Shown here: in pieces, positions 1-24,317 of the stretch | Layout of the letters: the number at the start of each line of letters is the position of its first letter | How positions within the stretch are numbered: the stretch's first letter is position 1 | Source of the DNA: Bacilli bacterium | Lineage (GTDB): Bacteria; Bacillota_I; Bacilli_A; RFN20; CAG-826 | DNA: 64,000 nt | Assembly (NCBI GenBank): GCA_036657515.1 | Contig: JAVXGI010000003.1 | Coordinates: 45-64,044, forward strand | Direction of reading: 5' to 3' | The notes under the pieces: generated by a model | Database searches by the model: none | Seen by the model: the letters and a program-made list of their open reading frames with translations, nothing else | What the model was told of the DNA's origin: nothing | Translations under genes and position numbers: made by a program

Positions 1-157
1 AAACGAGTTAAGTGGTAACTCAATTATATAAGAGATACTTTTTTTATACATTGATTTTGTCTTACTAAACTTAAAAAAAGCTAAAGATAAATAAAATAAA
101 AATGCCCTTTTTTCTAAGAGAAGAAAAAAAGGCATTTAAATTAAGTTAGAATAAGAT

Positions 158-850
158 TTATAACTGTGTTTTTTTGGTAATAGCAACGTTATATTCTGCT
201 TTTATTGAAACAATTTGTGATGTAGTAGGAGTAACGATACTTACTTCTTCATGAGTAATTAATCCACGATCATTTAATTCGAGTAAATGTTTTGATTCAG
301 TATCTTTAGCTGAAAGATTAGCATCAATTGTTAAGGCATTTCCTTTTTTAGTATAGGTAATACTACCATTTGCAAATGAAGTAGAAAATTCAACAAAAGA
401 GGTAGAATTAAATGATGCTAAGCTAGCAAGGGAAGTCTTTCCTGTTGCAATTTGATTTTGAGCTTCTGGAGCAGAAATAGAAACACAACTACCAGCAAGA
501 GAAGAACACATGTTATATTGTCCATCAGCTTTAAATATTAAAGCTTCAAGAGACATGTTAGGCATTACGATAGATGAATAATAGTAGAGATCTTTAAGAT
601 CAATATGTACAATTTGATTTAAAGTAGATTCTCCATTAGTTATTGTACTAGCAGTATAGACGATAGAATTTAAGGCATCAAATTCTTGTGAAGCATTATA
701 ACTATTTAAAAGAGTTTTAGCCTCTTCTGATGAAATGCTTGATTCACATGATGTTAAGCCTACTGATAAAAGACAAGCAGCGCTTATTAAAAATATTTTA
801 TTTTTCATATAAATACCCCCTATGAATATTAAAGATAATACACCTTTCAA
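158..850 (-). CDS. putative lipoprotein (signal peptide + lipobox LTSC)
   Basis: 230-aa ORF. N-terminal hydrophobic signal ends in L-T-S-C lipobox. No recognisable catalytic motifs. Confidence 0.55.
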   Translation of the reverse strand: MKGVLSLIFIGGIYMKNKIFLISAACLLSVGLTSCESSISSEEAKTLLNSYNASQEFDALNSIVYTASTITNGESTLNQIVHIDLKDLYYYSSIVMPNMSLEALIFKADGQYNMCSSLAGSCVSISAPEAQNQIATGKTSLASLASFNSTSFVEFSTSFANGSITYTKKGNALTIDANLSAKDTESKHLLELNDRGLITHEEVSIVTPTTSQIVSIKAEYNVAITKKTQL

Positions 851-958
851 TTATGCAAATCAAATGAATAAGTTAAGTATTCTTATTAATAATTAGCAAA
901 AAAACAAAAAAAGATATAAAAAGATGAGCACTTTAGGTGCTCATCTTTATTAATAATT

Positions 959-1810
959 TTATTCAAGAGTAGTTTTTTTGTTTTTTATTGGAGAATTATA
1001 AGTAATGTTACCTTTTGCGGAGACTTCACTATTTTGATACATTCCTGTTCCAGCAAGACTAGTTAATAGACCATAATCATTAAAGGTAAATCTTCCTGTT
1101 TCAAGAAGATAGGTTTCATATGATATTTCTGAGGCTACTTCAAATATAATAGAAGAGGCGCCAGTAACATAAAAGTTTAAGTTACTGACGTAAGCATTAT
1201 TTAATAAGAAGGTTCTTATAAATAATGCTTTGAAAGCATTTTGCTTTGAATTAGCGATAAGTGTTTTAGTTTCTTCTTCGGTCTTATTTCCAGTATTTGT
1301 AGCATTAGGATTACTGCTAAGATATTGATATTGATTATCTATTTTATTAACTAGATCAATGAGTTTTTTATCTAATATAAAAGCATATGTTTCCTTAATA
1401 TATGAATACATATAATATTCTCCTGGAGTATCATCTATTTGTTGAATAAATTTATAAGCATATACTCCTTGAATAGCACTAGCTGTACTTTCTTCTTGAA
1501 TAGTATTTATATAGTTAAATGATTCTGTTTCATTAATTCGTGTAAAAGCAATAGCTAATGCTTCTTCATATGTTATTGGTTCTATTTTATTTGGATCATG
1601 ATCACCAATTGAGACAAAGGAACTAGGTATTGAAATAGGAGTAGTAATACTAGTTGTTGAAGAAGGCTTACTAGAAGTACTAGTAGTAGTAGTTGAAGTA
1701 GAAGAAGACGAAATATTACTAGAAGAACTAGTAGTAGAACTAGTATATCCAGTACACGAGGTTATCATTGCTAAAGGAGCAATTAACGTAAATAATAATT
1801 TTCTTTTCAT
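959..1810 (-). CDS. Ser/Thr-rich (mucin-like linker) lipoprotein
   Basis: 283-aa ORF. Signal peptide with ITSC lipobox, followed by ~45 aa that are almost pure S/T (TSSTTSSSSNISSSSTSTTTTSTSS...), then a globular domain. Confidence 0.55.
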   Translation of the reverse strand: MKRKLLFTLIAPLAMITSCTGYTSSTTSSSSNISSSSTSTTTTSTSSKPSSTTSITTPISIPSSFVSIGDHDPNKIEPITYEEALAIAFTRINETESFNYINTIQEESTASAIQGVYAYKFIQQIDDTPGEYYMYSYIKETYAFILDKKLIDLVNKIDNQYQYLSSNPNATNTGNKTEEETKTLIANSKQNAFKALFIRTFLLNNAYVSNLNFYVTGASSIIFEVASEISYETYLLETGRFTFNDYGLLTSLAGTGMYQNSEVSAKGNITYNSPIKNKKTTLE

Positions 1811-1919
1811 AATATAATTCCTTATATCTAAATTATATAGTTTTATTTACTAAAATGGTATTTTTTTGATTGAATTGTAAATAAAATTATTGTATATTAA
1901 ATAAGCGCAAAGCGTATGT

Positions 1920-1996
1920 GGGCCTTTAGCTCAGTTGGTTAGAGCGCGTCCCTGATAAGGACGAGGTCGATAGTTCGAGCCTATTAAGGCCCACCA
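1920..1996 (+). tRNA. tRNA-Ile (anticodon GAT)
   Basis: Cloverleaf read by eye: acceptor GGGCCTT/AAGGCCC, D-arm AGCTCAGTTGGTTAGAGC, anticodon loop CTGATAA, T-arm GGTTCGAGCC, encoded CCA. Confidence 0.85.
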
Positions 1997-2041
1997 TTAA
2001 ATTTGCAACATACTATTTCTTAGAGATTGAATGAGTTAAGT

Positions 2042-2116
2042 GGACATTTAGCTCAGCGGGAGAGCGCTTCCTTCACACGGAAGAGGCCATAGGTTCAATC
2101 CCTATAATGTCCACCA
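2042..2116 (+). tRNA. tRNA-Val (anticodon CAC)
   Basis: Acceptor GGACATT/AATGTCC, anticodon stem CTTCC/GGAAG with loop TTCACAC, T-arm GGTTCAATCC, encoded CCA. Confidence 0.75.
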
Positions 2117-2122
2117 ATATAC

Positions 2123-2198
2123 GCCGTCTTAGCTCAATTGGCAGAGCAATTGATTTGTAATCAATAGGTTGTTGGTTCGATTCCGATAGACGGCACCA
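2123..2198 (+). tRNA. tRNA-Thr (anticodon TGT)
   Basis: Acceptor GCCGTCT/AGACGGC, anticodon stem ATTGA/TCAAT with loop TTTGTAA, T-arm GGTTCGATTCC, encoded CCA. Confidence 0.8.
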
Positions 2199-2207
2199 GA
2201 AAAAAAC

Positions 2208-2241
2208 AATAAATCGATCCTTACGAAGGATCGATTTTTTA
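2208..2241 (+). terminator. rho-independent terminator after tRNA cluster
   Basis: Hairpin AATCGATCCTT-ACGA-AGGATCGATT followed by a T-run. Confidence 0.7.
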
Positions 2242-2504
2242 TATTTTACGTTTATTTTCTAACGTCATAAATCGATTTTGATACGTAAACGTAAAAGATA
2301 TTTATACTCGAACCCACGAACTAAATTTAAAAAGAAAAAAGATTTAAAACAAATAACGTATAAGTAAAAGTAAATTGAATTGAAAATATTTAACTTAAAA
2401 GTTTAATATTTTCAAAATAATAAAACTAGATTATAATGGTATTATTCAAAGTGAAAACATGAGTTATTAAAGTTTGTTAAATAAATAATTTTAGGTAAAG
2501 AAAG

Positions 2505-3155
2505 ATGAATAAAGAATGGTCGGAAAAAAATAAAGAAGTAAAATTATTGTTAAATAATAGAGTTTCTTTTAATAAAGGAATTAAAGAATTAATAAAGTTA
2601 AGAACTCTATTATTTTATTATTGGTTTGATTCTATGAAAGAATTATCAAATGATGATTATTCAAAACAACCTTTTATTGCTAAAGAAGGATATGAATCTA
2701 AAACAATTTCTTATTCTATTTATCATGTATTTAGAATTGAAGATATTGTATTAAATACATTAATAAAAAACAAACAACAAATTTTTACGAGAGATAATTA
2801 CCAAAATAAAATGAATTCATCAATTATTACAACAGGAAACGAATTAAAAAAGGAATGTATTTTTAATTTTTCTAAAAAATTAAAAATAGAAGAATTGTGG
2901 AATTATGCAAAAGAAGTATTTGAAGAATCAAATGAACGGTTATCTTTACTTACGTTTGAAGATTTAGGAATAATATATTCTGAAGAAGATAAGAATAGAA
3001 TTAGAATAACTAATACAATAGCTCCAAGTGAAATGTGGTTGATTGACTATTGGTGTGATAAAAATATTAAAGGGTTATTAGGAATGCCGTTTTCACGTCA
3101 TTATATAATGCATTTAGAAGCATCGCTTAGAATCAAGAATAAGATTGTTAGATAA
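2505..3155 (+). CDS. hypothetical protein
   Basis: 216-aa ORF with no motif I can assign. AT-rich, preceded by a long non-coding stretch. Confidence 0.4.
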   Translation: MNKEWSEKNKEVKLLLNNRVSFNKGIKELIKLRTLLFYYWFDSMKELSNDDYSKQPFIAKEGYESKTISYSIYHVFRIEDIVLNTLIKNKQQIFTRDNYQNKMNSSIITTGNELKKECIFNFSKKLKIEELWNYAKEVFEESNERLSLLTFEDLGIIYSEEDKNRIRITNTIAPSEMWLIDYWCDKNIKGLLGMPFSRHYIMHLEASLRIKNKIVR

Positions 3156-3441
3156 ATAAAGTCATTAATATAAAACAAACACTTTAAGGATAAATCAAGG
3201 GATTATAAATTGAGTGGTTATGTTTAAACTATTTGTTATTTGTAATTACATGTATATAAGAAACGTCTATGAGGACTGGTGCTGATTGCATTGTTGATAT
3301 TAACAGGGAAAAGAAGTTTTATTAATTTAATTTATTTTTTTAATGAAAGACAGTGTTTCTATTTTAATAACGTTAAACTTAGTATCTAACCTCAATTAAA
3401 TAACGTAAACATACATCAATTAAATAACGAAATTATACGTA

Positions 3442-3469
3442 TTGACATATCTTGAATAGGTTCTATAAT
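3442..3469 (+). promoter_or_regulatory. sigma-70 type promoter (TTGACA-16bp-TATAAT) with long structured 5' leader, copy 1
   Basis: Consensus -35/-10 hexamers read directly. The ~100-nt leader carries an 11-bp inverted repeat, ATTTGAAAATA (3494-3504) / TATTTTCAAAT (3529-3539). The whole ~190-bp block is repeated at 4477-4645. Confidence 0.6.
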
Positions 3470-3569
3470 ATTTTAAAAGAAGACATTTTATTATTTGAAA
3501 ATATTGGCTTGTAATTAAATAATGGCTCTATTTTCAAATAATATATTTTTCAATTAAAAGGAGAAGAAT

Positions 3570-3923
3570 ATGGATGTTAAAGAACATAAATTTAAAATAG
3601 GAGATGCAGTAGTCCTAAAGGAAAGAGACCCTAAGTGGGATGAAGAAGTTATTATAGAACTAATCGTTGGTTATGTCGAGGATCCTAAACTTACGTATAT
3701 TAGCGATATAGAACGAGCTGAGTTATTAGAATCAAATTATGAGTATGTAATTGAATTTGTTGGCTGTGATTGTGGATGGGGCACACTAAGCAACAGACAA
3801 TATGTCAAAGAGTCACAAATTTATAAATGTAAATATAATTCTATCGAAGACTATGAAGATTGGGAATTTGTAGAGGATGCACGAGAAATACTTAGAAAAC
3901 GTGAAAATTCAAATAACAAATGA
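3570..3923 (+). CDS. small acidic Cys-containing protein (117 aa), paralog copy A
   Basis: Good RBS (AAAAGGAGAAGAATATG). It is 117 aa with a CDCGWG motif and an N-terminal KFKIGDAV motif. A near-identical paralog lies at 6346-6699. Confidence 0.7.
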   Translation: MDVKEHKFKIGDAVVLKERDPKWDEEVIIELIVGYVEDPKLTYISDIERAELLESNYEYVIEFVGCDCGWGTLSNRQYVKESQIYKCKYNSIEDYEDWEFVEDAREILRKRENSNNK

Positions 3924-3955
3924 TTCAAAATATCAAAAGTTGTCCAATAAAATAG

Positions 3956-4210
3956 TTGCTTATTAAAGATGATTCTAAACCAGCATATTTATTTTTGCTT
4001 TTTCATACATTATTATTTTGTCATTTGTGTAAGAATGGCGAAGAATACAATAATGAATACATAGAGTGGGTTAAAAAAGTGTTTACTGATATGTTTCCTG
4101 AGAATATTAATGTAGTATACTTTGCTATTTATACACTTAAAAATAATGAAGTAGTAGAAGTTTATAGACCTGTTTTGCATAAAAAAGATTTTGAAATTCT
4201 AACCACTTGA
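3956..4210 (+). pseudogene. 3' gene fragment homologous to the C-terminus of the 127-aa protein at 7035-7418 (orphan cassette)
   Basis: No RBS. The last ~50 codons (IEWVKKVFTDMFPENINVVYFAIYTLKNNEVVEVYRPVLH.KDFEI) are nearly identical to the 3' end of 7035-7418, while the N-terminal part is unrelated. Confidence 0.55.
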
Positions 4211-4476
4211 ATGAGCAAACTTTAATGTAAAGCGTCAGTTTTGCTATTTTTTATTTTTCTCATAACAAATTTAATAGCGAACCTGTTTTTTTAGGTCTTA
4301 TCTATAGCAAAAAACACTTTAAACTAAAAACATAAAAGGTATTTATGTTCAAATAAAATATAATAATGCATGTTTTTCAAAAAAAGCATGAAAACAACTT
4401 TTTTACTTTATAATTTTGTAATTTACATCTGTTTCACATTTTATGGTTTGATTCTTATTTAATTTGTAATGAAATT

Positions 4477-4645
4477 GTTGTCTAACCTCACCTCAATTAA
4501 ATAACGAAATTATACGTATTGACATATTTAAAACACATTCTATAATATTTTAAAGAAGACATTTTATTATTTGAAAATATTGGCTTGTAATTAAATAACG
4601 GCTCTATTTTCAAATAATATATTTTTCAATTAAAAGGAGAAAAAT
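4477..4645 (+). promoter_or_regulatory. second copy of the promoter + structured leader (TTGACA 4519-4524, TATAAT 4541-4546)
   Basis: Near-identical to 3381-3569, including the 11-bp inverted repeat (4569-4579 / 4605-4615) and the RBS. Here it drives the unrelated 473-aa gene. Confidence 0.6.
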
Positions 4646-6067
4646 ATGGGATTTAAGAAAAAATTATTGTTTCTAACTTGTTTAGCATTTACATTTATTA
4701 CAGTATGTAGACCGATTGCTTCTTCAAATGAATATGAGAAAGTTGAGAAAAATTTACTTACAGAAGTAAAAAGAGCAATTAACGTTTCTAATGAAGAAGA
4801 TATTAATAATCCTGATTTTATTTTCGATAATTCAATTAATGAATACAAAAAACAATTTGCAGAATATATTAATATAACTGGTTTGAATGTTAGCGAAAAG
4901 GACGAAATAGAACTTCCAAACTTTAATTTATCTTATATTGCACCAAATTACAGTGATGTGATGTTAGGATATCAAACAAAACTTGAAAATAGTTTATCTA
5001 CAGAAGATCTAGTTAAGTATGAAGAACTTAGACATCAAGATTTTAATTTTGATAGATATGTTGCTTTAAATTGCGTTAAATACGAAAATTTAACGCCAAC
5101 CTTAAAATATAGCCATAATATTTGTCCTATTCAACCGATTAATCCTGTTACTCCTTTAAATCCTGCAATCAATGTAGGCGATGTTTCGACTAGAGCGGTT
5201 GTTGCTGGAACTTCAGCGATAGTTTCGATTTTAACTATGGCCGGTTTAGGACAGACTGCAATTACAGCTTTTACCGCCTGTATTTCAACAATTACTGCAG
5301 GTCTTTCTACAAGCTGGATTCCATTTATTGGTTGGATACTTGCTATTGCAATAGTCACTGGAGCTTTAATTGCTTTAGTGGTAATTATTGTTCAAAATTG
5401 GGAAGCTATTTGCGACGCGATGGAACAAATTAAATCATGGTTTTTGGAACAATTTGCAAGCTTTGCTGCTTTAATAACTTCATTTTTTGCTGATGCAATC
5501 GCAAAAGGAATTGAATCAACAATTGCTGGAAGAGATCACATAGGAAATAAAGAATTGGTATGGAAATCAAAAACTGTTGAAAAAGAGAGCGCTATTGCAT
5601 TGACAGAATCGTTAAGAAGAGATAAAAAAAGAATATTTTTAATGAAAAATGTTAGAAAGAAAGTCAATCCAATTGATAATGGGATGTATGTTAATTATTG
5701 GACCACTGATGGATACTATGATGAGGATTTTGTAACATCATTTAATCTTTATGATTACGGTATAAGTACATATACTTGGTACAATGATAATGCAAGGCGT
5801 CTTATGCTTAATGGAAGTACGAAAATACAATATAATCCCACTGAATATACAATTATGTATCATAATTTTTTAATAAATGATACAGCACTAAATGGATGGA
5901 ATCACTATCATATTTATGGAGTAAAATTAAATAGTGAGACTAATCAAAAGGAATATAACGATTTACACGGAGATTTACTTCATAAAGCTCATTCATTCTT
6001 TGGCCTTATGTATCTTAAATCTATTGATGGACAAATTGAGACACAAACTTTTCCAAAAAATCCATAA
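4646..6067 (+). CDS. secreted/membrane protein: signal peptide, N-domain, two hydrophobic helices (Gly/Ala/Thr-rich hairpin), aromatic His-rich C-terminal domain
   Basis: 473-aa ORF. N-terminal signal (possible lipobox ITVC), ~70-aa hydrophobic segment AVVAGTSAIVSILTMAGLGQTAITAFTACISTITAGLSTSWIPFIGWILAIAIVTGALIALVVIIV, and a C-terminal region rich in Y/W/H (HYHIYGVK, LHGDLLHKAHSFFG). Confidence 0.65.
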   Translation: MGFKKKLLFLTCLAFTFITVCRPIASSNEYEKVEKNLLTEVKRAINVSNEEDINNPDFIFDNSINEYKKQFAEYINITGLNVSEKDEIELPNFNLSYIAPNYSDVMLGYQTKLENSLSTEDLVKYEELRHQDFNFDRYVALNCVKYENLTPTLKYSHNICPIQPINPVTPLNPAINVGDVSTRAVVAGTSAIVSILTMAGLGQTAITAFTACISTITAGLSTSWIPFIGWILAIAIVTGALIALVVIIVQNWEAICDAMEQIKSWFLEQFASFAALITSFFADAIAKGIESTIAGRDHIGNKELVWKSKTVEKESAIALTESLRRDKKRIFLMKNVRKKVNPIDNGMYVNYWTTDGYYDEDFVTSFNLYDYGISTYTWYNDNARRLMLNGSTKIQYNPTEYTIMYHNFLINDTALNGWNHYHIYGVKLNSETNQKEYNDLHGDLLHKAHSFFGLMYLKSIDGQIETQTFPKNP

Positions 6068-6345
6068 TTAAATATAGTTTAAACATATGTGGTAGTGTAC
6101 ATCAAGAAAAATGAGAAATACAACGAATTCAATTATGGTGTATAAATTGTTATCGACTATGTTAAAAAAAACATGAATATATGATTATACTGCGAATGAA
6201 TATTTTGAACTTACAAAAGATATACAGGTTAAATTTCAAAAAAGAAAATATAGATCTACATAAGTTTCAATATCATTAATACGATTAATTATTAAAAGAT
6301 TTAAGCATAATACTTATTATTACGAAAATTTAAAAGGAGAAGAAT

Positions 6346-6699
6346 ATGGATGTTAAAGAACATAAATTTAAAATAGGAGACGCAGTAATCCTAAAGGAAA
6401 GAGACCCTAGTTGGAATGAAGAAGATGTTATAGAAATGATTGTTGGTTATGTTGAGGATCCTAAACTTACGTATATTAGTGATAGAAAAAGAGCTGAGTT
6501 ATTAGAATTAAATTATGAGTATGTAATTGAATTTGTTGGCTGTGATTGCGGATGTGGCACACTAAGCAACAGACAATATGTCAAAGAGTCACAAATTTAT
6601 AAATGTAAATATAATTCTATCGAAGACTATGAAGATTGGGAATTTGTAGAGGATGCACGAGAAATACTTAGAAAACGTGAAAATTCAAATAACAAATGA
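6346..6699 (+). CDS. small acidic Cys-containing protein (117 aa), paralog copy B
   Basis: About 90% identical to 3570-3923, with the same RBS but different upstream sequence. Motif is CDCGCG. Confidence 0.7.
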   Translation: MDVKEHKFKIGDAVILKERDPSWNEEDVIEMIVGYVEDPKLTYISDRKRAELLELNYEYVIEFVGCDCGCGTLSNRQYVKESQIYKCKYNSIEDYEDWEFVEDAREILRKRENSNNK

Positions 6700-6731
6700 T
6701 TCAAAATATCAAAAGTTGTCCAATAAAATAG

Positions 6732-6986
6732 TTGCTTATTAAAGATGATTCTAAACCAGCATATTTATTTTTGCTTTTTCATACATTATTATTTTGTCAT
6801 TTGTGTAAGAATGGCGAAGAATACAATAATGAATACATAGAGTGGGTTAAAAAAGTGTTTACTGATATGTTTCCTGAGAATATTAATGTAGTATACTTTG
6901 CTATTTATACACTTAAAAATAATGAAGTAGTAGAAGTTTATAGACCTGTTTTGCATAGAAAAGATTTTGAAATTTCGACAACTTGA
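6732..6986 (+). pseudogene. second copy of the 3' gene fragment (orphan cassette)
   Basis: Near-identical to 3956-4210. No RBS. Confidence 0.5.
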
Positions 6987-7034
6987 GCAAGTTCATCCAT
7001 TGAGTCCTCAAAATTAACTATTGGAGGTAGTTTT

Positions 7035-7418
7035 ATGAAATTTAAATATGGCGACTTAGTATATAGCACAGAATTAAGAAAAATAGAACATCTTTTTCCA
7101 ATGCTTGTTATTAAGTTTTACAGTAAAAAAGATAAGTATTTATGCTTAACTGCATCAAGGTATTCTCCAGGTGATGAAGGCACTATTTTTTATCTTGTGG
7201 CCGAAAGTGAATTAACTATGTTTGAACATTTTGACGGCGAGGATGGCGAAGAATTCAATGATGATCATATAGAGTGGGTTAAAAAAGTGTTTACTGATAT
7301 GTTTCCTGAGAATATTAATGTAGTATACTTTGCTATTTATACACTTAAAAATAATGAAGTAGTAGAAGTTTATAGACCTGTTTTGCATAGAAAAGATTTT
7401 GAAATTCCAACAACTTGA
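7035..7418 (+). CDS. 127-aa protein; N-terminal KFKYGDLV motif, C-terminal domain shared with the two upstream fragments
   Basis: RBS GGAGG precedes the ATG. The C-terminal 50 aa are identical to the fragments at 3956-4210 and 6732-6986. The N-terminus resembles the N-terminus of the 117-aa proteins (KFK-GD-V). Confidence 0.65.
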   Translation: MKFKYGDLVYSTELRKIEHLFPMLVIKFYSKKDKYLCLTASRYSPGDEGTIFYLVAESELTMFEHFDGEDGEEFNDDHIEWVKKVFTDMFPENINVVYFAIYTLKNNEVVEVYRPVLHRKDFEIPTT

Positions 7419-7621
7419 ATGAGCAAGCCTTAATTTTTTTAGTTCTTTTTAATAAAAAACTCTTTTAACTAAAAACATAAAAGATACATGTGCTGTGAAA
7501 GTATCAGATTAGACACATAAAAATAATACTGTAAACTATCTTTCTAAATTTTATGAGTTAAGTATGACTAATGGTTATTTCATTTTTAATAGTAAAAAGA
7601 CATATTAACTTATTTATTATT

Positions 7622-8533
7622 CTATTTCGCATTCTTAATAAATTTATCTATTTCATCATTACATTTAATTGATTCTTTTTTGTTAGGAGCAGTTACATTA
7701 AAAACATGTATTGCATCAGGTGATGATTCATAATAAAACGAAAAAGATATATCATCTTTAATGAATAATTCTTTTAATTTAAATGCTTGCTCACCTACTA
7801 CGCTATCACCCTTACTTGTTACTATTAATATATTAGTTACTTTATTCATTAAAGATGATATATCTTCAAAAGAATAAGCATTCTTTATTGATTTATTCTT
7901 ATTAATCATTAAGTTATTAAACTTATTAACAGCTATTTTATTTAAGATATTATGATGTAACATAATTTTCATATCACGAACAAATGGAGCTGGATGATTT
8001 AATATAAGATTTTTAATCTTAATATCAATATGTTTTACTTTATATAAAGCTTGAAGTTCATTATTTTCATTAATAATATCAAATAATAGTGCAAGATGTC
8101 CACCAGCACTATTTCCTGCTAATGTAATATTATTTTTATCATATGAATATTTGTTATTTAATTTAACAATGTTTGAAATAGAAGCAAAGACATCTTGCAC
8201 CATTTCACTAATTCCTACTTCTGGAATTAATCTATAATTAATAGAAACTACAAGATAGCCTCTTCGTGCAAAATCCATTGCGTATAATCCATTAAGATTT
8301 TCATCTCCATAAATCCATGCTCCACCATGAAGCACGATAAGAAGAGGCTTTAAATCTTCTTTGTTTCTATTAATATAGAAGTTTTGTTTAAGAAGAGTTG
8401 AAGTGGTAGAAAACGTTTCAGGAAAGACATCAATATCTTTAACGTTAGATTGAGACTTTATAAATGGTTCATCATGGATTCTCATTTTTTCTTTAAGATC
8501 TAGAATTTGCTTTGTTAAGTATTTATTAAACAT
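7622..8533 (-). CDS. alpha/beta-hydrolase fold esterase/lipase (Aes-like)
   Basis: HGGAW oxyanion motif (LHGGAWIYGD), nucleophile elbow GNSAGGH, and a later His. Confidence 0.7.
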   Translation of the reverse strand: MFNKYLTKQILDLKEKMRIHDEPFIKSQSNVKDIDVFPETFSTTSTLLKQNFYINRNKEDLKPLLIVLHGGAWIYGDENLNGLYAMDFARRGYLVVSINYRLIPEVGISEMVQDVFASISNIVKLNNKYSYDKNNITLAGNSAGGHLALLFDIINENNELQALYKVKHIDIKIKNLILNHPAPFVRDMKIMLHHNILNKIAVNKFNNLMINKNKSIKNAYSFEDISSLMNKVTNILIVTSKGDSVVGEQAFKLKELFIKDDISFSFYYESSPDAIHVFNVTAPNKKESIKCNDEIDKFIKNAK

Positions 8534-8621
8534 ATTGTTACCTCTTTATTATTATAAATAATTAGAATGTTAATACAAATGAATGTAAATATATTATTAA
8601 TTGTGGTATATTATTTAAGTC

Positions 8622-8705
8622 GCTGGTATGGCGGAATGGTAGACGCGCTAGACTTAGAATCTAGTGGGTAATCCCGTGCAAGTTCAAGTCTTGTTACCAG
8701 CACCA
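8622..8705 (+). tRNA. tRNA-Leu (anticodon TAG), long variable arm
   Basis: Acceptor GCTGGTA/TACCAGC, anticodon stem CTAGA/TCTAG with loop CTTAGAA, long extra arm, encoded CCA. Confidence 0.8.
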
Positions 8706-8717
8706 ATAAATAATAAA

Positions 8718-8746
8718 ACGAACTCATTAGATGGGTTCGTTTTTTC
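8718..8746 (+). terminator. rho-independent terminator
   Basis: Hairpin AACGAACTCAT-TAGA-TGGGTTCGTT followed by TTTTT. Confidence 0.65.
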
Positions 8747-8771
8747 TTTAAAGTTATTTTTATTAACGGGA

Positions 8772-9011
8772 TTACCTTTTTGTTTGTTTATATATTTTAA
8801 TAATAACAATTATAATTCCGATTAAACTAGATATAGATAAAATTGTTAAGATGATTACTGTTATTATTGCATCAGGTAGTCTCATAAAAGAATTCATAGG
8901 TGAAAAAGTAACAACGTAATGAATCATCGGAACAAGACAAAAGGTTGATAGTGCAAAAAGAATTATCAAGAGTACTAAGAGGGTTATTTTTAAACCAAGT
9001 TTCTTTTTCAT
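8772..9011 (-). CDS. small two-TM membrane protein
   Basis: 79 aa, almost entirely hydrophobic. Start overlaps the stop of the upstream gene. Confidence 0.45.
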   Translation of the reverse strand: MKKKLGLKITLLVLLIILFALSTFCLVPMIHYVVTFSPMNSFMRLPDAIITVIILTILSISSLIGIIIVIIKIYKQTKR

Positions 9012-9493
9012 TTTGTACTTTCCTTATATATTTTTGAGTAGGAAATTAATTCGGGCATCTTATTAAAAGCTGAGAATAAATCTCCATTATTTAACAAACC
9101 TTTTTCATAAGATTCAAGTGGAGTATAAAAAATATCGTCATCAAATTTATATAACAAAAATTTAATTTTATATTTAAAAGAATAAGTAAAAGTAGCGAAT
9201 TCTAAATTCCAATTCTTAGTAGTTTTATCAATTTCCCACGCTACAAAAAAACAGGTATCTTTATCTTCGGATTGAATTCTTGAAATAAATTTTGAATACT
9301 CTGTATCTTCAACTTCGGCTTTTGGGTTGGTTGGAAGAATATACTTATTATAATAAGATCTTAACATTGTAAAATTCTCAAAAACAGATGGCGTTACATC
9401 ATCGATTGGTTTAAATATTATAGGTCCACATGATGAAAGTGACAAAGTAATTGCAAATAAAATATAAAATTTTATTTTAAAAGGATTTTTCAT
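9008..9493 (-). CDS. putative lipoprotein
   Basis: 161 aa with signal peptide and LSSCGP lipobox. Confidence 0.5.
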   Translation of the reverse strand: MKNPFKIKFYILFAITLSLSSCGPIIFKPIDDVTPSVFENFTMLRSYYNKYILPTNPKAEVEDTEYSKFISRIQSEDKDTCFFVAWEIDKTTKNWNLEFATFTYSFKYKIKFLLYKFDDDIFYTPLESYEKGLLNNGDLFSAFNKMPELISYSKIYKESTK

Positions 9494-9671
9494 AAGTAGA
9501 TACCTCTAATAAAATTATAGGCTTAACTTATTTATTTGACAACTGAATAGGCATTAAACCAATAATATTATTCTTCAAAAGAGAGACTATCACTATTTAA
9601 TAATTTATCTTATTATTTGTTATTCTAATTATGTATTTTTTATTTAGTGGTTGATATATAATAAATAAGAT

Positions 9672-10556
9672 ATGAAAGGCCTATTACTTACTAATGCATT
9701 TGCTATAAATGAACATATAGAATTTCAAAGTAACTCATTTATTAAAGAGTTTAATCTTTTAGGTGTGGATCTTATTCATAAGACTAATAGTGAGTTATTA
9801 GTATATATAAATAATGATGGAGATATTGCTAAAAGATTTAACGAATACGATTTTATCTTGTATTTTGACAAAGATAAATACATTGGTAAAATGCTTGAAA
9901 AAGTCGGTTGTTCACTAATTAATTCTAGTTCTAGTGTTGAAGCGTGTGATGATAAGATGCTTACTCATATATTACTTGCTAATAACGGTATAAAGATGCC
10001 TAGAACTATCTCTTATCCATTATGTTACGAGTACCACAATAATATAGAGCCCGTTATAGCAAGTGTCTTAAAAGCCTTTAATTTTCCTTTTATCATTAAA
10101 GAAAACTTTGGTTCACTTGGTAAACAAGTATATCTTGTTAAAAATAAAGAAGAATTAATGTTATTAGAAAATAAGTTACGTTATGTTCCACATTTATATC
10201 AAGAATTTATCAGTGAATCAATTGGAGTTGATTATCGATTAATATTAATTGGAAACAAAGTAGTATCTGCAATGAAAAGAAGCAATGATAGTAATTTTGT
10301 TGCAAATATTGGATCTGGAGGTAAAGGAGAAACCTATATTCCTGATACAAGAATGAAAGAGATTGCTATTAAAGCTTCTAAAATATTAGGATTAGATTAC
10401 TGTGGAATTGATTTTGTTATCAATAGTCTTGGGGAACCAGTCTTATTAGAAGTAAATTCAAATGCTTTCTTTAAAGAAATAGATAAAATAAATAATATTA
10501 ATATACCAGAGATTTTTGCTAAATACGTAATTGAAAAAGTCAAAAATATAGATTAA
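9672..10556 (+). CDS. ATP-grasp family ligase (RimK / glutathione-synthetase-like)
   Basis: 294 aa. ATP-grasp signature region (GSLGKQVYLV, DYRLILIGNKVVSAMKR, LEVNSNAFF). Followed by a terminator hairpin. Confidence 0.6.
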   Translation: MKGLLLTNAFAINEHIEFQSNSFIKEFNLLGVDLIHKTNSELLVYINNDGDIAKRFNEYDFILYFDKDKYIGKMLEKVGCSLINSSSSVEACDDKMLTHILLANNGIKMPRTISYPLCYEYHNNIEPVIASVLKAFNFPFIIKENFGSLGKQVYLVKNKEELMLLENKLRYVPHLYQEFISESIGVDYRLILIGNKVVSAMKRSNDSNFVANIGSGGKGETYIPDTRMKEIAIKASKILGLDYCGIDFVINSLGEPVLLEVNSNAFFKEIDKINNINIPEIFAKYVIEKVKNID

Positions 10557-10713: not shown

Positions 10714-11355
10714 ATGGAAAAGAAAGATTTACTATCTCATAACTGTATAACAAGACTTCCTTTATACCTTAATTATCTTAAATCACTTGATTATGATGAT
10801 CTTACATTAGTATCAACCCAAAGTATTGCTACTGGATTGAATATTAATGCCGAAGTGGTTAAAAAAGATATTGCGGCTATTTCTTCTGAGAAAGGAATGC
10901 CAAGAAAAGGTAGAAGTGTAGTTTTATTAGTTAAAGATCTAGAAAAATTTCTAGGAGCAGGCTGTCAAATTAATGCTGTATTAATAGGAACAGGACATCT
11001 TGGAAAAGCACTTCTAAATTATGATGGATTTAGTGAATATGGATTAAACATTATTGCAGCTTTCGATTCTGATCCGCGATGTCGAGAAATAGATGTCTGT
11101 GGTATTAATGTCTACTCAATGAGTTTATTAGACAATATTATCAAAGACAAACATGCGGAAATCGGAATTATTACAGTTCCAAGCCACGCTGCACAAAGCG
11201 TAGCGGAAAAACTGGTACAAGCTGGAATAAAAGCAATATGGAATTTTGCTCCAATTAATCTTAATCTTGATCCTAGTATTATTGTCGCTAATGTTAATAT
11301 GGCAAGTTCACTTGCAGTATTATCACATCAACTTTATCTTAATAATCTGAAATAA
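10714..11355 (+). CDS. rex: redox-sensing transcriptional repressor Rex
   Basis: 213 aa. N-terminal winged-helix (RLPLYLNYL) and Rossmann GTGHLG motif. Sits immediately upstream of adhE, the classic Rex target. Confidence 0.8.
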   Translation: MEKKDLLSHNCITRLPLYLNYLKSLDYDDLTLVSTQSIATGLNINAEVVKKDIAAISSEKGMPRKGRSVVLLVKDLEKFLGAGCQINAVLIGTGHLGKALLNYDGFSEYGLNIIAAFDSDPRCREIDVCGINVYSMSLLDNIIKDKHAEIGIITVPSHAAQSVAEKLVQAGIKAIWNFAPINLNLDPSIIVANVNMASSLAVLSHQLYLNNLK

Positions 11356-23134: not shown

Positions 23135-23147
23135 TAAGTGTAAGATA

Positions 23148-23230
23148 TATCCGGGTGCTGAAGTATATTCGGCTGAGATGATTGTAGTCAATCAAACCGT
23201 ACTTGATCTAGGTAATACTAGCGGAAGGAG
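23148..23230 (+). ncRNA. TPP (THI-box) riboswitch
   Basis: GGTGC ... CTGAGA ... ACC-N-TGATCTAGGTAATACTAGCGGAAGG matches the THI-box core elements. Lies directly upstream of a ThiT-like transporter. Confidence 0.8.
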
Positions 23231-23234
23231 AAAT

Positions 23235-24317
23235 ATGGAACAAAAAGTTATCAAGGAAAAAACTTTTACAGAGAAAATGGTTGCTGTAATAAGTGAAAAC
23301 AGGACCATTATTCTAGACGTAGTCGCATTAGTAGCAGGAGTTATAGGAATAATTCTATCTCTATTTGCTTTTGCTAAGATTAAAGATTTTGAAGGGACAA
23401 AGATTATAGTTACAGGAATAGAGGTATTCTTTGGAACTAGCAGTTTATTAGGATTTAATGTGATTGCATTTTTTATCTTCTTACTTCCTTTATTAGGATT
23501 AGTAAGTATTCCAATGTCACATTTCTTTAAACCAATTAAAGGCATGTCGGCTTTATTCTTACTTGCATCAGCTATTTTAATTATTATTTTACCATCAGTT
23601 TTAATTCAAGGAATTGACGGACCACGATTTGAGTATGTTAAGCTACAAGATTTTGCAGCAATTGCAAGCGCTCTTTATTTCTTATCAGGTATTGCATTGT
23701 TTATCTCTGATTATCAAAATGATAAATTCTCAATTTCTGACATTGCAGAAACTGCAATGTTAATTGCAATTGCCGTCGTATTAAATTATATAAAAGTTCC
23801 ACTTGGAGCAACGGGCGGATCAATTAACTTACAAATAGTACCACTTGTTATAATTGCATTACGTTATTCACCATCTAAAACATTTTTTGCATCAGGATTA
23901 TGTTATGGATTAATATCATGTATTCTTGATGGATATGGATTACATACCTTTCCATTTGAATATTTAATTGCATTTGGTTCAGTTGTTATTATTTCGTTTG
24001 TTAGAAAATACGTTATATCTAAAGGAAAACCAACTATTATTGGAGGAGCATTAATCCTATTCTTAGTAATGGTTGCTACTGGTATTAGATTCTTTGGCGC
24101 TTCATTTGATAGTGTAATATTCTATAACTATACTTGGACTGCTGCTTTTGCATATAACGCAATTTATATTTGGCCAACTGGAGCATTAACTGCAGTTGTT
24201 GCTGTTTTATTTTATATAAAACCTTTATTCTTTTTAAATAGATTATTCCCAACTACCGATATGAAGCGTGATTTAACTGAAAAAGTTGTTGTTGAAGAAA
24301 TCGCAGAAACAAAATAA
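23235..24317 (+). CDS. thiamine ECF-transporter substrate-binding (S) component ThiT-like, with N-terminal extra membrane domain
   Basis: C-terminal half matches the ThiT family pattern (AETAMLIAIAVVLNYI..LGATGGSINLQIVPLVIIALRYS). The N-terminal ~170 aa are additional TM helices. Start at ATG 23235 with RBS GGAAGGAG; the ORF track's upstream TTG start would run through the riboswitch. Confidence 0.65.
   Translation: MEQKVIKEKTFTEKMVAVISENRTIILDVVALVAGVIGIILSLFAFAKIKDFEGTKIIVTGIEVFFGTSSLLGFNVIAFFIFLLPLLGLVSIPMSHFFKPIKGMSALFLLASAILIIILPSVLIQGIDGPRFEYVKLQDFAAIASALYFLSGIALFISDYQNDKFSISDIAETAMLIAIAVVLNYIKVPLGATGGSINLQIVPLVIIALRYSPSKTFFASGLCYGLISCILDGYGLHTFPFEYLIAFGSVVIISFVRKYVISKGKPTIIGGALILFLVMVATGIRFFGASFDSVIFYNYTWTAAFAYNAIYIWPTGALTAVVAVLFYIKPLFFLNRLFPTTDMKRDLTEKVVVEEIAETK

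What the first reader, a model, noticed from the sequence alone, without database searches (positions are those of the whole stretch)
3381..4645. An identical ~170-bp promoter + structured 5' leader drives two unrelated genes
The block from TCTAACCTCA..., through TTGACA-16-TATAAT and a ~100-nt leader, to AAAAGGAGAA-ATATGG occurs at 3381-3569 upstream of the 117-aa gene and at 4477-4645 upstream of the unrelated 473-aa gene. It contains a perfect 11-bp inverted repeat (ATTTGAAAATA ... TATTTTCAAAT) enclosing a 24-nt loop. Conservation of an entire UTR across different ORFs points to a shared cis-regulatory RNA structure or operator, not coding constraint.
Basis: seen in the sequence. Interest (0 to 1): 0.6.

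Follow-up and report, generated by a model that had tools for sequence, protein, structure and literature searches.

The report
Duplicated promoter-leader from a local gene rearrangement
A strong promoter with its roughly 93-base untranslated leader sits in front of two unrelated genes because a recent local duplication fused it onto a second copy of a neighbouring small gene, so the near-identity reflects recency and is no evidence of a conserved regulatory RNA.

Summary
The repeat is real. Window 3383-3573 and 4479-4649 share about 161 alignable nt at 94% identity. Each copy holds a perfect TTGACA-16-TATAAT promoter, a ~93-nt leader, a perfect 15-bp inverted repeat with a 25-nt loop, and a Shine-Dalgarno site.

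The identity does not show selection. Copy 1 is a chimera. It matches the 473-aa gene's leader as far as a 12-nt stretch, TTAAAAGGAGAA, and from there matches the 117-aa cassette that lies downstream of the 473-aa gene. That cassette includes 402 nt with no differences between its two copies, part of it non-coding. Between strains the leader diverges faster (4.2%) than the 473-aa coding sequence (1.05%).

- No Rfam family matches.
- A covariance model finds no further copy in 363 kb.
- The nearest relative (52% protein identity) keeps the promoter and a long leader, but has no hairpin.
- 20 more distant homologues have short, unrelated leaders.

The host is an uncultured RF39-like gut Bacilli MAG. 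The 473-aa gene encodes a conserved membrane protein that is almost always followed by small acidic partner genes.

One lead remains. The same half-sites (TTGAAAATA...TATTTTCAA) form a third inverted repeat over the neighbouring gene's promoter (2380-2415). This hints at an operator. What the hairpin does is unresolved. The finding is ordinary in origin and of modest interest.

The parts
3383..3573 (+). Repeat copy 1: promoter, leader and Shine-Dalgarno site in front of the 117-aa gene (117a). It is a chimera: 473-leader type up to 3553, shared 12-nt junction at 3554-3565, 117b type from 3566.
4479..4649 (+). Repeat copy 2: promoter, leader and Shine-Dalgarno site of the 473-aa gene. This is probably the original copy.
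   Evidence: The promoter is orthologous to that of the nearest relative, L036.
3442..3469 (+). Promoter of copy 1: TTGACA, a 16-nt spacer (TATCTTGAATAGGTTC), then TATAAT. The predicted transcription start is about 3476.
   Evidence: The start site is inferred, not mapped.
4519..4546 (+). Promoter of copy 2: TTGACA, a 16-nt spacer (TATTTAAAACACATTC), then TATAAT. The predicted transcription start is about 4553. The spacer is the variable patch between the two copies and between strains.
3489..3543 (+). Hairpin or inverted repeat in copy 1: 15-bp perfect arms (3489-3503 and 3529-3543) around a 25-nt loop that contains AATTAAATAATG.
   Evidence: (I18)
4565..4619 (+). Hairpin or inverted repeat in copy 2: arms 4565-4579 and 4605-4619 around a 25-nt loop.
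3544..3570 (+). Weak second hairpin in copy 1 (8 pairs, UAUUUUUC / GAAGAAUA). The Shine-Dalgarno site (AAGGAG, 3558-3563) lies in its loop and the first base of the start codon in its stem. The equivalent in copy 2 is 4620-4646.
   Evidence: Minimum-free-energy folds. Low stability. The G/A difference is explained by the recombination junction.
3554..3565 (+). TTAAAAGGAGAA, a 12-nt microhomology shared by the 473 leader (4630-4641) and the region upstream of 117b (6330-6341). It is the inferred crossover site that fused the leader to the 117 cassette.
3394..3429 (+). Two AATTAAATAACG 12-mers upstream of the -35 hexamer in copy 1 (3394-3405 and 3418-3429). Copy 2 has one (4495-4506). A further copy lies in each hairpin loop (3513-3524 and 4589-4600).
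   Evidence: 5 hits, 0.2 expected. The significance is weakened because the 3' CG is not kept in strains L034 and L035 and the 10-nt core is common.
3570..3923 (+). 117a gene. It encodes a small acidic protein and is a paralogue of 117b.
   Evidence: Homologues directly follow the 473 homologue in L030, L032 and L037.
3956..4210 (+). Truncated copy (fragment a) of the 3' half of the 127-aa gene. Together with 4211 to about 4340 it is a relic of that gene's 3' end and downstream region.
4646..6067 (+). 473-aa gene. It encodes a conserved membrane protein of unknown function, with an N-terminal signal or anchor, a helical domain, a Pro-rich linker, hydrophobic helices, and a C-terminal alpha/beta domain with invariant H420, H422 and H449.
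6330..6992 (+). The 117b gene (6346-6699) plus fragment b (6732-6986). This is the source-type copy of the cassette duplicated at 3554-4216.
   Evidence: (D1)
7035..7418 (+). Full-length 127-aa gene, a small acidic protein of a second partner family.
2380..2415 (.). Third, independent inverted repeat with the same half-sites (TTGAAAATATT...AATATTTTCAA). It overlaps the predicted -35 hexamer of the neighbouring 216-aa gene's promoter.

Best explanation
**What it is.** The block is a strong housekeeping-type (sigma-A) promoter, a leader of about 93 nt and a Shine-Dalgarno site. It belongs to the operon of a conserved 473-aa membrane protein in an uncultured RF39-like gut Bacilli species.

**Why it occurs twice.** The repeat-rich gene array around that gene was locally duplicated and rearranged. 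One copy of the leader was joined, by recombination inside a 12-nt stretch (TTAAAAGGAGAA) common to both ribosome-binding regions, to a copy of the 117-aa gene cassette. That cassette normally lies downstream of the 473-aa gene. This is promoter capture.

**Why the two blocks are so alike.** The near-identity is due to recent duplication and ongoing gene conversion, not to purifying selection on an RNA.

**Consequence (inferred).** The extra copy of the small partner gene is now transcribed on its own from the same strong promoter as the 473-aa gene. The two products should therefore be made in parallel.

**The 15-bp inverted repeat.** It is a genuine but lineage-specific feature of this leader. 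I split its role three ways, all inferred:
- about 35%: paired DNA half-sites for an unidentified repressor that also acts at the neighbouring 216-aa gene's promoter;
- about 30%: a 5'-UTR hairpin that affects mRNA stability or translation;
- about 35%: no specific role.
For: **Shown**
- The repeat and the perfect promoters are real.
- Copy 1 is 473-leader type to the left of TTAAAAGGAGAA and 117b type to the right. This includes G3566 and the whole 117-plus-fragment cassette, 3554-4216 against 6330-6992.
- The cassette is a mosaic: 51 nt identical, then 18 differences in 175 nt, then 402 nt with no differences, part of it non-coding. This is the pattern of recent gene conversion.
- Both ends of the leader repeat are abrupt. 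Sequence upstream of TCTAACCTC is unrelated between the copies (z = 0.8).
- The DNA after fragment a is homologous to the DNA after the 127-aa gene (z = 5.9). The region is therefore built from rearranged copies of one ancestral unit.
- In relatives the order is 473 homologue followed by a small acidic gene, in 20 of 22 loci, and the 117 and 127 families are among those genes. The copy behind the 473-aa gene is therefore the ancestral position, and 117a is the derived copy.
- Between strains the leader diverges 4.2% (L035), against 1.05% for the 473-aa coding sequence and 3.8% for the non-coding gap.
- There is no Rfam match.
- A covariance model of the leader finds only the known copies in 363 kb.
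- The nearest relative has an orthologous promoter and a ~105-nt leader, but without the hairpin (z = +0.88).
- 20 other homologues have short, unrelated leaders.
- MAG assemblies break at these repeats (L007, L008, L034, L035, L038).
Against: - Seven of the 9 mismatches between the copies sit in 10 nt of the promoter spacer, the one part of a promoter where the sequence is free to vary. The spacer is also variable between strains. That pattern could equally mean an older duplication, with the -35, the -10 and the leader held constant by selection.
- DNA next to copy 2 (4217-4480) is only about 75-80% like its counterpart after the 127-aa gene. At least part of the rearrangement is therefore old.
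- All three substitutions seen in the hairpin region fall in the loop and none in the 30 stem positions. The chance probability is about 0.09, so this is not significant, but it points towards constraint.
- The 15-bp perfect inverted repeat is unusual. The other long perfect ones in the window are terminators.
- The third inverted repeat with identical half-sites, at 2380-2415, has 0.01 expected by chance. This argues that the arms have a function.
- Only about 69 kb of this species' genome could be searched, so further copies elsewhere are not excluded.
Confidence: 0.65

Rival explanations
1. DNA operator. The inverted repeat TTGAAAATA-N25-TATTTTCAA in the leader, possibly together with the AATTAAATAAYG boxes on both sides of the promoter, binds a locus-specific repressor. 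That repressor would also bind TTGAAAATA-N18-TATTTTCAA over the -35 hexamer of the neighbouring 216-aa gene. Three transcription units would then be co-regulated. This concerns function and is compatible with the duplication origin.
For: - The half-site pair occurs 3 times in the window against 0.01 expected. The third site is independent and lies 1.1 kb away, over a predicted -35 hexamer.
- There is no wider homology between that region and the leader, so the shared arms are not simply another duplication.
- A third half-site-like copy, TATTTTTCAA, follows 15 nt after the right arm.
- The 12-mer occurs only in these units.
- The variation seen falls in the loop or spacer and not in the arms.
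Against: - The distance between half-sites differs by 7 bp between the two kinds of site, which is awkward for a simple dimer.
- The leader site lies at +13 to +67, downstream of the promoter.
- None of the 10 neighbouring proteins scanned (158-10556) has a DNA-binding domain hit; the nearest is the Put_DNA-bind_N/CoA_binding gene at 10714-11355.
- Relaxed-match searches find no regulon beyond chance.
- The 3' end of the 12-mer is not kept in other strains, and its 10-nt core is common in this AT-rich genome.
- The coincidence was noticed after the fact.
Confidence: 0.2
2. Cis-regulatory RNA. The leader folds into a structured element (a riboswitch-like sensor, an attenuator, a thermosensor or a stabiliser) that controls both genes after transcription starts.
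For: - The hairpin is more stable than shuffled sequence (z = -3.05 and -3.53).
- It is followed by UAUAUUUUUC.
- A weak second hairpin holds the first base of the start codon.
- The stems are invariant in all strains seen.
Against: - No Rfam family matches at E <= 10.
- No homologous structure exists in the nearest relative's orthologous leader or in 20 other homologues. No covariation exists to test.
- The structure is a single AU-rich hairpin with an unstructured 25-nt loop. That is too simple for a ligand-binding aptamer.
- It is unlike this genome's terminators, which have 3-7-nt loops and G-C pairs.
- No alternative antiterminator pairing and no leader peptide were seen.
- The G/A difference that keeps pairing in the second hairpin is a by-product of the recombination junction.
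Confidence: 0.12
3. Dispersed mobile promoter cassette or small palindromic repeat element (MITE-like) that has inserted in front of different genes across the genome.
For: - The repeat has sharp boundaries.
- It contains an internal inverted repeat.
- MAG assemblies break at it.
Against: - Only two copies occur in 69 kb of this species. Both lie inside one rearranged array, and a covariance model finds no others.
- The 22-mer core has no match in 185,579 species genomes or in viral contigs, and only chance matches in metagenomes.
- The 3' boundary coincides with a microhomology junction, not with an element terminus.
- There are no target-site duplications or terminal inverted repeats at the ends of the block.
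Confidence: 0.05
4. Assembly artefact. The duplication was created by mis-assembly of a metagenome bin.
For: - The source is a MAG.
- Several sister assemblies break exactly at these repeats.
Against: - Two independent assemblies, the window and L006 (99.5% identical), carry both copies with the same copy-specific differences.
- The copies differ at 10 positions, and each has its own unique flanks.
Confidence: 0.03

Closest known systems
Promoter capture by segmental duplication and microhomology or gene-conversion recombination in repeat-rich gene arrays (general bacterial genome evolution; from my own knowledge, not a paper read here)
   Same: - Two copies with abrupt ends.
- A chimeric junction in a short shared stretch.
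- Mosaic blocks of 100% identity next to diverged patches.
- Truncated gene relics nearby.
- Assemblies that break at the repeats.
   Different: Nothing essential differs. The junction happens to lie exactly in the Shine-Dalgarno region, so a complete promoter and leader were transplanted onto another reading frame.
Mollicute variable surface-protein gene families (for example the Mycoplasma vlp and vsp families), in which each paralogue carries a highly conserved promoter and 5' region (from my own knowledge)
   Same: - A low-GC lineage related to the Mollicutes.
- A near-identical promoter and 5' UTR in front of more than one gene in a cluster.
- Sequence variability located in the promoter spacer.
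   Different: - Here the two genes are unrelated, and homology stops at the start codon. There is no shared signal peptide.
- The spacer has no homopolymer tract and keeps a constant 16-nt length, so there is no sign of phase variation.
- Only two copies are seen.
Effector or toxin gene followed by variable small acidic immunity-type genes, including extra or orphan copies (polymorphic toxin and bacteriocin loci; from my own knowledge)
   Same: - A large secreted or membrane protein is followed in 20 of 22 genomes by small acidic ORFs of five unrelated families.
- The window holds duplicated and truncated copies of those genes.
- One extra partner copy has its own strong promoter.
   Different: - No known toxin or immunity domain was detected, and there is no fold match.
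- The large protein is conserved over its whole length rather than having a variable C-terminal tip.
- No secretion-system genes were seen nearby.

Membership is therefore not claimed.
5'-UTR stabilising hairpins and intrinsic attenuators of Firmicutes (from my own knowledge)
   Same: A stable stem-loop early in a leader, followed by a U-rich stretch and a strong Shine-Dalgarno site.
   Different: - The hairpin starts about 13 nt from the predicted 5' end, whereas protective hairpins are usually at the very end.
- It has a 25-nt loop and only one G-C pair.
- There is no alternative structure.
- It is not conserved in relatives.

Membership tests
Known cis-regulatory RNA family (Rfam 15) | Match to a curated covariance model | tested here: not met
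   There is no hit on the leader at gathering thresholds or at E <= 10 over 3300-4700. The same scan did find a TPP riboswitch elsewhere in the window.
Conserved structured RNA (new family) | Homologous leaders in other genomes that keep the helix through compensatory changes | tested here: not met
   There are no homologues outside the species. The pattern scans of genome, metagenome and viral collections gave none or only chance hits. The covariance model finds nothing in relatives' loci. The orthologous leader in L036 is unstructured. Within the species the stems never vary, which is uninformative.
Intrinsic terminator or attenuator | G+C-containing stem, a short loop (3-8 nt), and a U-tract directly after the stem | tested here: not met
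   The stem has 1 G-C pair in 15 and the loop is 25 nt. The terminator scan does not call it. Real terminators in this window have 3-7-nt loops. A partial U-tract, UAUAUUUUUC, is present.
Intrinsic terminator or attenuator | A mutually exclusive antiterminator structure or a leader peptide | tested here: inconclusive
   The folds show no competing helix. There is no ATG-initiated small ORF in the leader (read from the sequence). Protein-dependent antitermination cannot be excluded.
Sigma-70 / sigma-A promoter | -35 and -10 hexamers close to consensus, with a 16-18-nt spacer, in front of a gene | tested here: met
   Both copies match 12 of 12 positions. They are the only two such matches in 64 kb, against 0.18 expected.
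Sigma-70 / sigma-A promoter | A mapped transcription start | not testable with these tools
   This needs 5'-RACE or a metatranscriptome.
Recent segmental duplication or gene-conversion repeat | Abrupt repeat boundaries, adjoining duplicated DNA of equal or higher identity, and a chimeric junction | tested here: met
Recent segmental duplication or gene-conversion repeat | The repeat is no more conserved between strains than neutral DNA | tested here: met
   The leader diverges 4.2% (L035) and 1.8% (L034). The 473-aa coding sequence diverges about 1% and the non-coding gap 3.4-3.8%. The counts are small.
Palindromic operator of a transcription factor | Inverted half-sites that recur at other promoters | tested here: met
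   TTGAAAATA...TATTTTCAA occurs at 2380, 3495 and 4571, against 0.01 expected.
Palindromic operator of a transcription factor | Constant half-site spacing and a cognate regulator gene | tested here: not met
   The spacing is 18 nt at one site and 25 nt at the others. None of the 10 neighbouring proteins scanned (158-10556) has a DNA-binding domain hit; the nearest is the Put_DNA-bind_N/CoA_binding gene at 10714-11355.
Toxin-immunity (polymorphic toxin) locus | A recognisable toxin or immunity domain or fold | tested here: not met
   Pfam, NCBIfam, PADLOC, PDB sequence and PDB/BFVD fold searches are all negative. The only hit is a tape-measure-like hydrophobic segment.
Toxin-immunity (polymorphic toxin) locus | A variable small gene directly downstream of the large gene | tested here: met
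   Seen in 20 of 22 loci, with five families and pI 4.2-6.6.
Mollicute vlp/vsp-type phase-variable gene family | Paralogous surface-protein genes that share the 5' region and signal peptide, with a length-variable tract in or near the promoter | tested here: not met
   The two genes are unrelated. Homology ends at ATGG. The spacer is 16 nt in every copy and strain and has no homopolymer run.

The most novel reading that the evidence does not exclude
The inverted repeat in the leader, the matching inverted repeat over the neighbouring gene's promoter, and perhaps the AATTAAATAAYG boxes are sites for a so far unidentified regulator. An alternative version is a species-specific RNA hairpin switch. 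Either would co-ordinate expression of a conserved but uncharacterised membrane effector of RF39-type gut bacteria with its small acidic partner proteins. The duplicated leader would then have been retained by selection because the effector and an extra partner copy must be made in step, as toxin-immunity logic would predict.
Probability: 0.2. Interest if true: 0.45.

Novelty: new member of a known kind. Interest (0 to 1): 0.25.

Why it matters
Mainly as a caution. Near-identical non-coding DNA in front of different genes within one locus is first of all a sign of recent duplication, and should not be read as a conserved regulatory RNA without comparative support.

It is also a clean small example of how a complete promoter and leader can be transplanted onto another gene by recombination inside the ribosome-binding site.

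The surrounding locus may deserve more attention than the leader itself. A 473-aa membrane protein is conserved across uncultured RF39-like gut Bacilli, has no known domain or fold match, and is almost always followed by fast-changing small acidic genes.

Tried and rejected
**Searches for further copies of the leader**
- An exact 22-mer scan of the leader core gave 0 hits in genome contigs and 0 in viral contigs.
- The same scan gave 5 hits in metagenomes, all chance matches with unrelated flanks.
- The species is not among the GTDB representatives, so a whole-genome count of copies was impossible.

**Searches for a known or conserved RNA**
- Rfam was searched at gathering thresholds and at E <= 10. 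Nothing matched.
- A covariance model R1 (the hairpin plus the weak second hairpin) was run over the window and 28 loci. It found only the known copies.
- I looked for a homologous leader upstream of 20 homologues from other species and of the two nearest ones. None was found.

**Wider homology and motifs**
- Wider homology between 2250-2510 and the leader: none.
- Relaxed half-site and 15-mer searches for a regulon: at chance level.
- A CodY-box resemblance of the arms (about 11 of 15 by eye) was considered and dropped as uninformative in a 30% GC genome. It was not tested.
- Terminator reading: rejected on loop size and G-C content.
- Phase variation through the promoter spacer: rejected, because the spacer length is constant.

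**Function of the 473-aa protein**
- The AlphaFold model is good (pLDDT 84.5).
- Foldseek found nothing in the PDB or BFVD, and there was no PDB sequence hit.

**Smaller families and side checks**
- The 117-aa and 127-aa family searches returned only proteins from the same species.
- Alternative genetic code for the broken L030 homologue: rejected, since it is frameshifted.
Full report
**1. The observation**

Window 3383-3573 and 4479-4649 are copies of one block. It lies directly upstream of the 117-aa ORF (3570-3923) and of the unrelated 473-aa ORF (4646-6067).

BLASTN gives 93.8% identity over 161 nt, with 9 mismatches and 1 gap. A 34-nt core occurs twice, against 0.00 expected. The block is therefore real but not identical. 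The differences are:
- seven mismatches clustered in 10 nt of the promoter spacer;
- a 1-nt indel just after the -10 hexamer;
- a T/C difference in the hairpin loop;
- a G/A difference after the Shine-Dalgarno site;
- an additional CAATTAAATAACG unit upstream in copy 1.

Each copy carries a perfect TTGACA-16-TATAAT promoter. These are the only two in the 64 kb, against 0.18 expected. The transcription start is inferred at about 3476 and 4553, which gives a 93-94-nt leader. The Shine-Dalgarno site AAGGAG lies 6 nt before the ATG.

As RNA it folds better than shuffled sequence, with z = -3.05 and -3.53. A weak second hairpin places the Shine-Dalgarno site in its loop and the first base of the start codon in its stem.

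Both copies are present, with the same copy-specific differences, in an independent assembly of the same species (L006, 99.5% identical).

**2. Where it comes from**

The window belongs to an uncultured 'Bacilli bacterium' known only from MAGs (GCA_036662375.1 and sister assemblies). It has 30% G+C and uses the standard genetic code. Relatives carrying homologues of the 473-aa gene are named Candidatus Enteromonas, Onthovivens, Enterosoma and 'uncultured Mollicutes'. This is the RF39-like part of the Bacilli.

**3. Anatomy of the locus**

The order of features is:
- 216-aa gene (2505-3155);
- leader copy 1, then 117a;
- a truncated copy of the 3' half of the 127-aa gene (3956-4210);
- about 260 nt of other sequence;
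- leader copy 2, then the 473-aa gene;
- a 278-nt gap;
- 117b (6346-6699);
- the same truncated fragment (6732-6986);
- the full 127-aa gene (7035-7418).

The cassette 3554-4216 repeats 6330-6992. The stretch after fragment a is homologous, at lower identity and with an insertion of about 60 nt, to the stretch after the 127-aa gene (z = 5.9). Several MAG assemblies break exactly at these repeats.

**4. The junction**

The three sequences upstream of the start codons are:
- upstream of 117b: ...AAAATTTAAAAGGAGAAGAATATGGATG;
- upstream of the 473-aa gene: ...TTCAATTAAAAGGAGAAAAATATGGGAT;
- upstream of 117a: ...TTCAATTAAAAGGAGAAGAATATGGATG.

Copy 1 is therefore 473-leader type to the left of the shared 12-mer TTAAAAGGAGAA, and 117b type to its right.

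The simplest history is a tandem duplication of the unit leader-473-117-fragment, followed by loss of the 473-aa gene from one copy. That loss would have happened by recombination within the Shine-Dalgarno microhomology. This is inferred.

In 20 of 22 other genomes the 473 homologue is followed within about 60 nt by a small acidic ORF. Homologues of the 117-aa and 127-aa proteins are among these ORFs. The position behind the 473-aa gene is therefore ancestral, and 117a is the derived copy that captured the promoter.

**5. Does the identity need selection?**

The evidence says no.
- The duplicated cassette next to the leader is a mosaic: 51 identical nt, then 18 differences in 175 nt (10 non-synonymous and 6 synonymous codons), then 402 nt without a single difference. 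That last stretch includes non-coding DNA and a gene relic. The leader is no better conserved than this.
- The repeat ends abruptly upstream at TCTAACCTC. Beyond that point the two flanks are unrelated (z = 0.8).
- Between strains the leader diverges 4.2% (L035) and 1.8% (L034). This compares with about 1% for the 473-aa coding sequence and 3.4-3.8% for the non-coding gap.

There are caveats. The clustering of differences in the functionally free promoter spacer could also fit an older duplication with constraint on everything else. The same applies to the fact that all three substitutions in the hairpin region lie in the loop. The numbers are too small to decide, since the chance probability is about 0.09 for the loop/stem split.

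**6. Comparative tests for an RNA element**

- No Rfam family matches at gathering thresholds or at E <= 10.
- The leader core has no exact match in 185,579 species genomes or in viral contigs, and only chance matches in metagenomes.
- A covariance model of the two hairpins finds only the known copies in 363 kb, comprising the window, same-species loci and 23 relatives' loci. The next best hit has E = 0.47.
- The nearest homologue (52% protein identity, L036) keeps a recognisably orthologous promoter (ATTGACATAT...TTCTACAATATT) and a leader of about 105 nt. That leader is unalignable and unstructured (z = +0.88).
- Twenty more distant homologues have TATAAT boxes 30-45 nt before the ATG and no similar element.

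No covariation exists to test, and the stem is lineage-specific.

The hairpin also does not look like this genome's terminators. Those have 3-7-nt loops and several G-C pairs.

**7. A lead in favour of function**

The half-sites of the leader's inverted repeat recur as an independent 36-bp inverted repeat at 2380-2415: TTGAAAATATTTAACTT-AA-AAGTTTAATATTTTCAA. This repeat overlaps the predicted -35 hexamer of the neighbouring 216-aa gene's promoter.

The pattern TTGAAAATA-N10-40-TATTTTCAA has 3 hits in the window against 0.01 expected. There is no wider homology between the two regions. This is what an operator shared by neighbouring promoters would look like.

Several points count against that reading:
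- the spacing differs by 7 bp between the two kinds of site;
- no regulator gene is evident nearby;
- relaxed searches reveal no further sites;
- the AATTAAATAAYG boxes lose their 3' end in other strains and have a common 10-nt core.

I rate an operator role at about 0.2 as a rival explanation. Within the three-way split given under the best explanation, it is about one third of the possible roles of the repeat.

**8. The genes served**

The 473-aa protein belongs to a family of at least 56 clusters, conserved over its full length at 33-52% identity. The model is confident (pLDDT 84.5). It shows:
- an N-terminal signal or anchor;
- a helical domain;
- a Pro-rich linker;
- hydrophobic helices resembling the hydrophobic segment of phage tape-measure proteins (PHROG 58, E = 1.9e-6);
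- a C-terminal alpha/beta domain with invariant histidines.

There is no Pfam, NCBIfam, PADLOC, PDB sequence, PDB fold or BFVD fold match.

The small acidic downstream genes fall into five BLAST-level families. This resembles an effector-immunity layout, but no defining toxin or immunity feature was met, so membership is not claimed.

**9. Verdict**

The origin is an ordinary local duplication with promoter capture (confidence about 0.65 for the whole account, and higher for the origin alone).

The inference from conservation to a cis-regulatory RNA is not supported. A species-specific operator or UTR hairpin remains possible and is testable.

Novelty: a new instance of a known kind of event. 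Interest: 0.25.

Noticed in passing
window 2380-2415: A 36-bp near-perfect inverted repeat (17-nt arms, 2-nt centre) overlaps the predicted -35 hexamer of the 216-aa gene's promoter. Its outer 11 nt are identical to the half-sites of the leader hairpin.
   Followed up: partly
window 3452-3461 and 4529-4538; L035 about 30-45: The promoter spacer is a small hot spot of variation. Seven of 10 nt differ between the two copies, and 3 differ in strain L035, while the spacer length stays at 16 nt and the hexamers stay perfect.
   Followed up: partly
window 3554-4216 vs 6330-6992: The two cassette copies form a mosaic. Differences cluster at 3605-3779 (10 non-synonymous and 6 synonymous codons in the 117-aa gene), followed by 402 nt with none. 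This suggests gene conversion or diversifying change in the N-terminal half of the small protein.
   Followed up: partly
window 3956-4210 and 6732-6986: The 84-aa ORFs are truncated copies of the 3' half of the 127-aa gene (7035-7418), 94-95% identical over about 180-195 nt. Gene callers annotate them as 61-aa proteins.
   Followed up: yes
loci L011-L037, just downstream of each 473 homologue: Twenty of 22 homologues of the 473-aa gene are followed within about 60 nt by a small acidic ORF (111-256 aa). These fall into five unrelated BLAST families, and some genomes carry two. The system is conserved but uncharacterised.
   Followed up: partly
window 4646-6067: The 473-aa protein gives a confident AlphaFold model but has no Pfam, PDB or BFVD match. 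H420, H422 and H449 are invariant in its C-terminal domain. The central hydrophobic helices resemble those of phage tape-measure proteins.
   Followed up: partly
window 23141-23247: A TPP riboswitch (59.7 bits) lies on the + strand within a run of + strand ORFs.
   Followed up: no
L012, L013, L020, L026 (genome contigs record titles): Contigs that encode clear homologues of this low-GC Bacilli protein are titled Bacteroides uniformis, Hallerella sp., Escherichia coli and Lachnospiraceae bacterium ('cleanbin' MAGs). L038 is titled Malacoplasma sp. These are probably mislabelled or contaminated bins.
   Followed up: no
L030 6001-7440: One Candidatus Onthovivens copy of the 473 homologue is frameshifted in its middle under both code 11 and code 4. 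It is either a pseudogene or an assembly error. The same MAG has two further copies or fragments (L029, L032).
   Followed up: yes
window 46-879 vs L006 4545-5369: The lipoprotein-like 230-aa gene at the left end of the window has an 80%-identical tandem paralogue just outside the window, another sign of local gene duplication in this region.
   Followed up: no
window 6068-6345: The gap between the 473-aa gene and 117b is 278 nt, against about 10-60 nt in relatives. No terminator-like hairpin was called there. It is unclear whether 117b is co-transcribed with the 473-aa gene.
   Followed up: no
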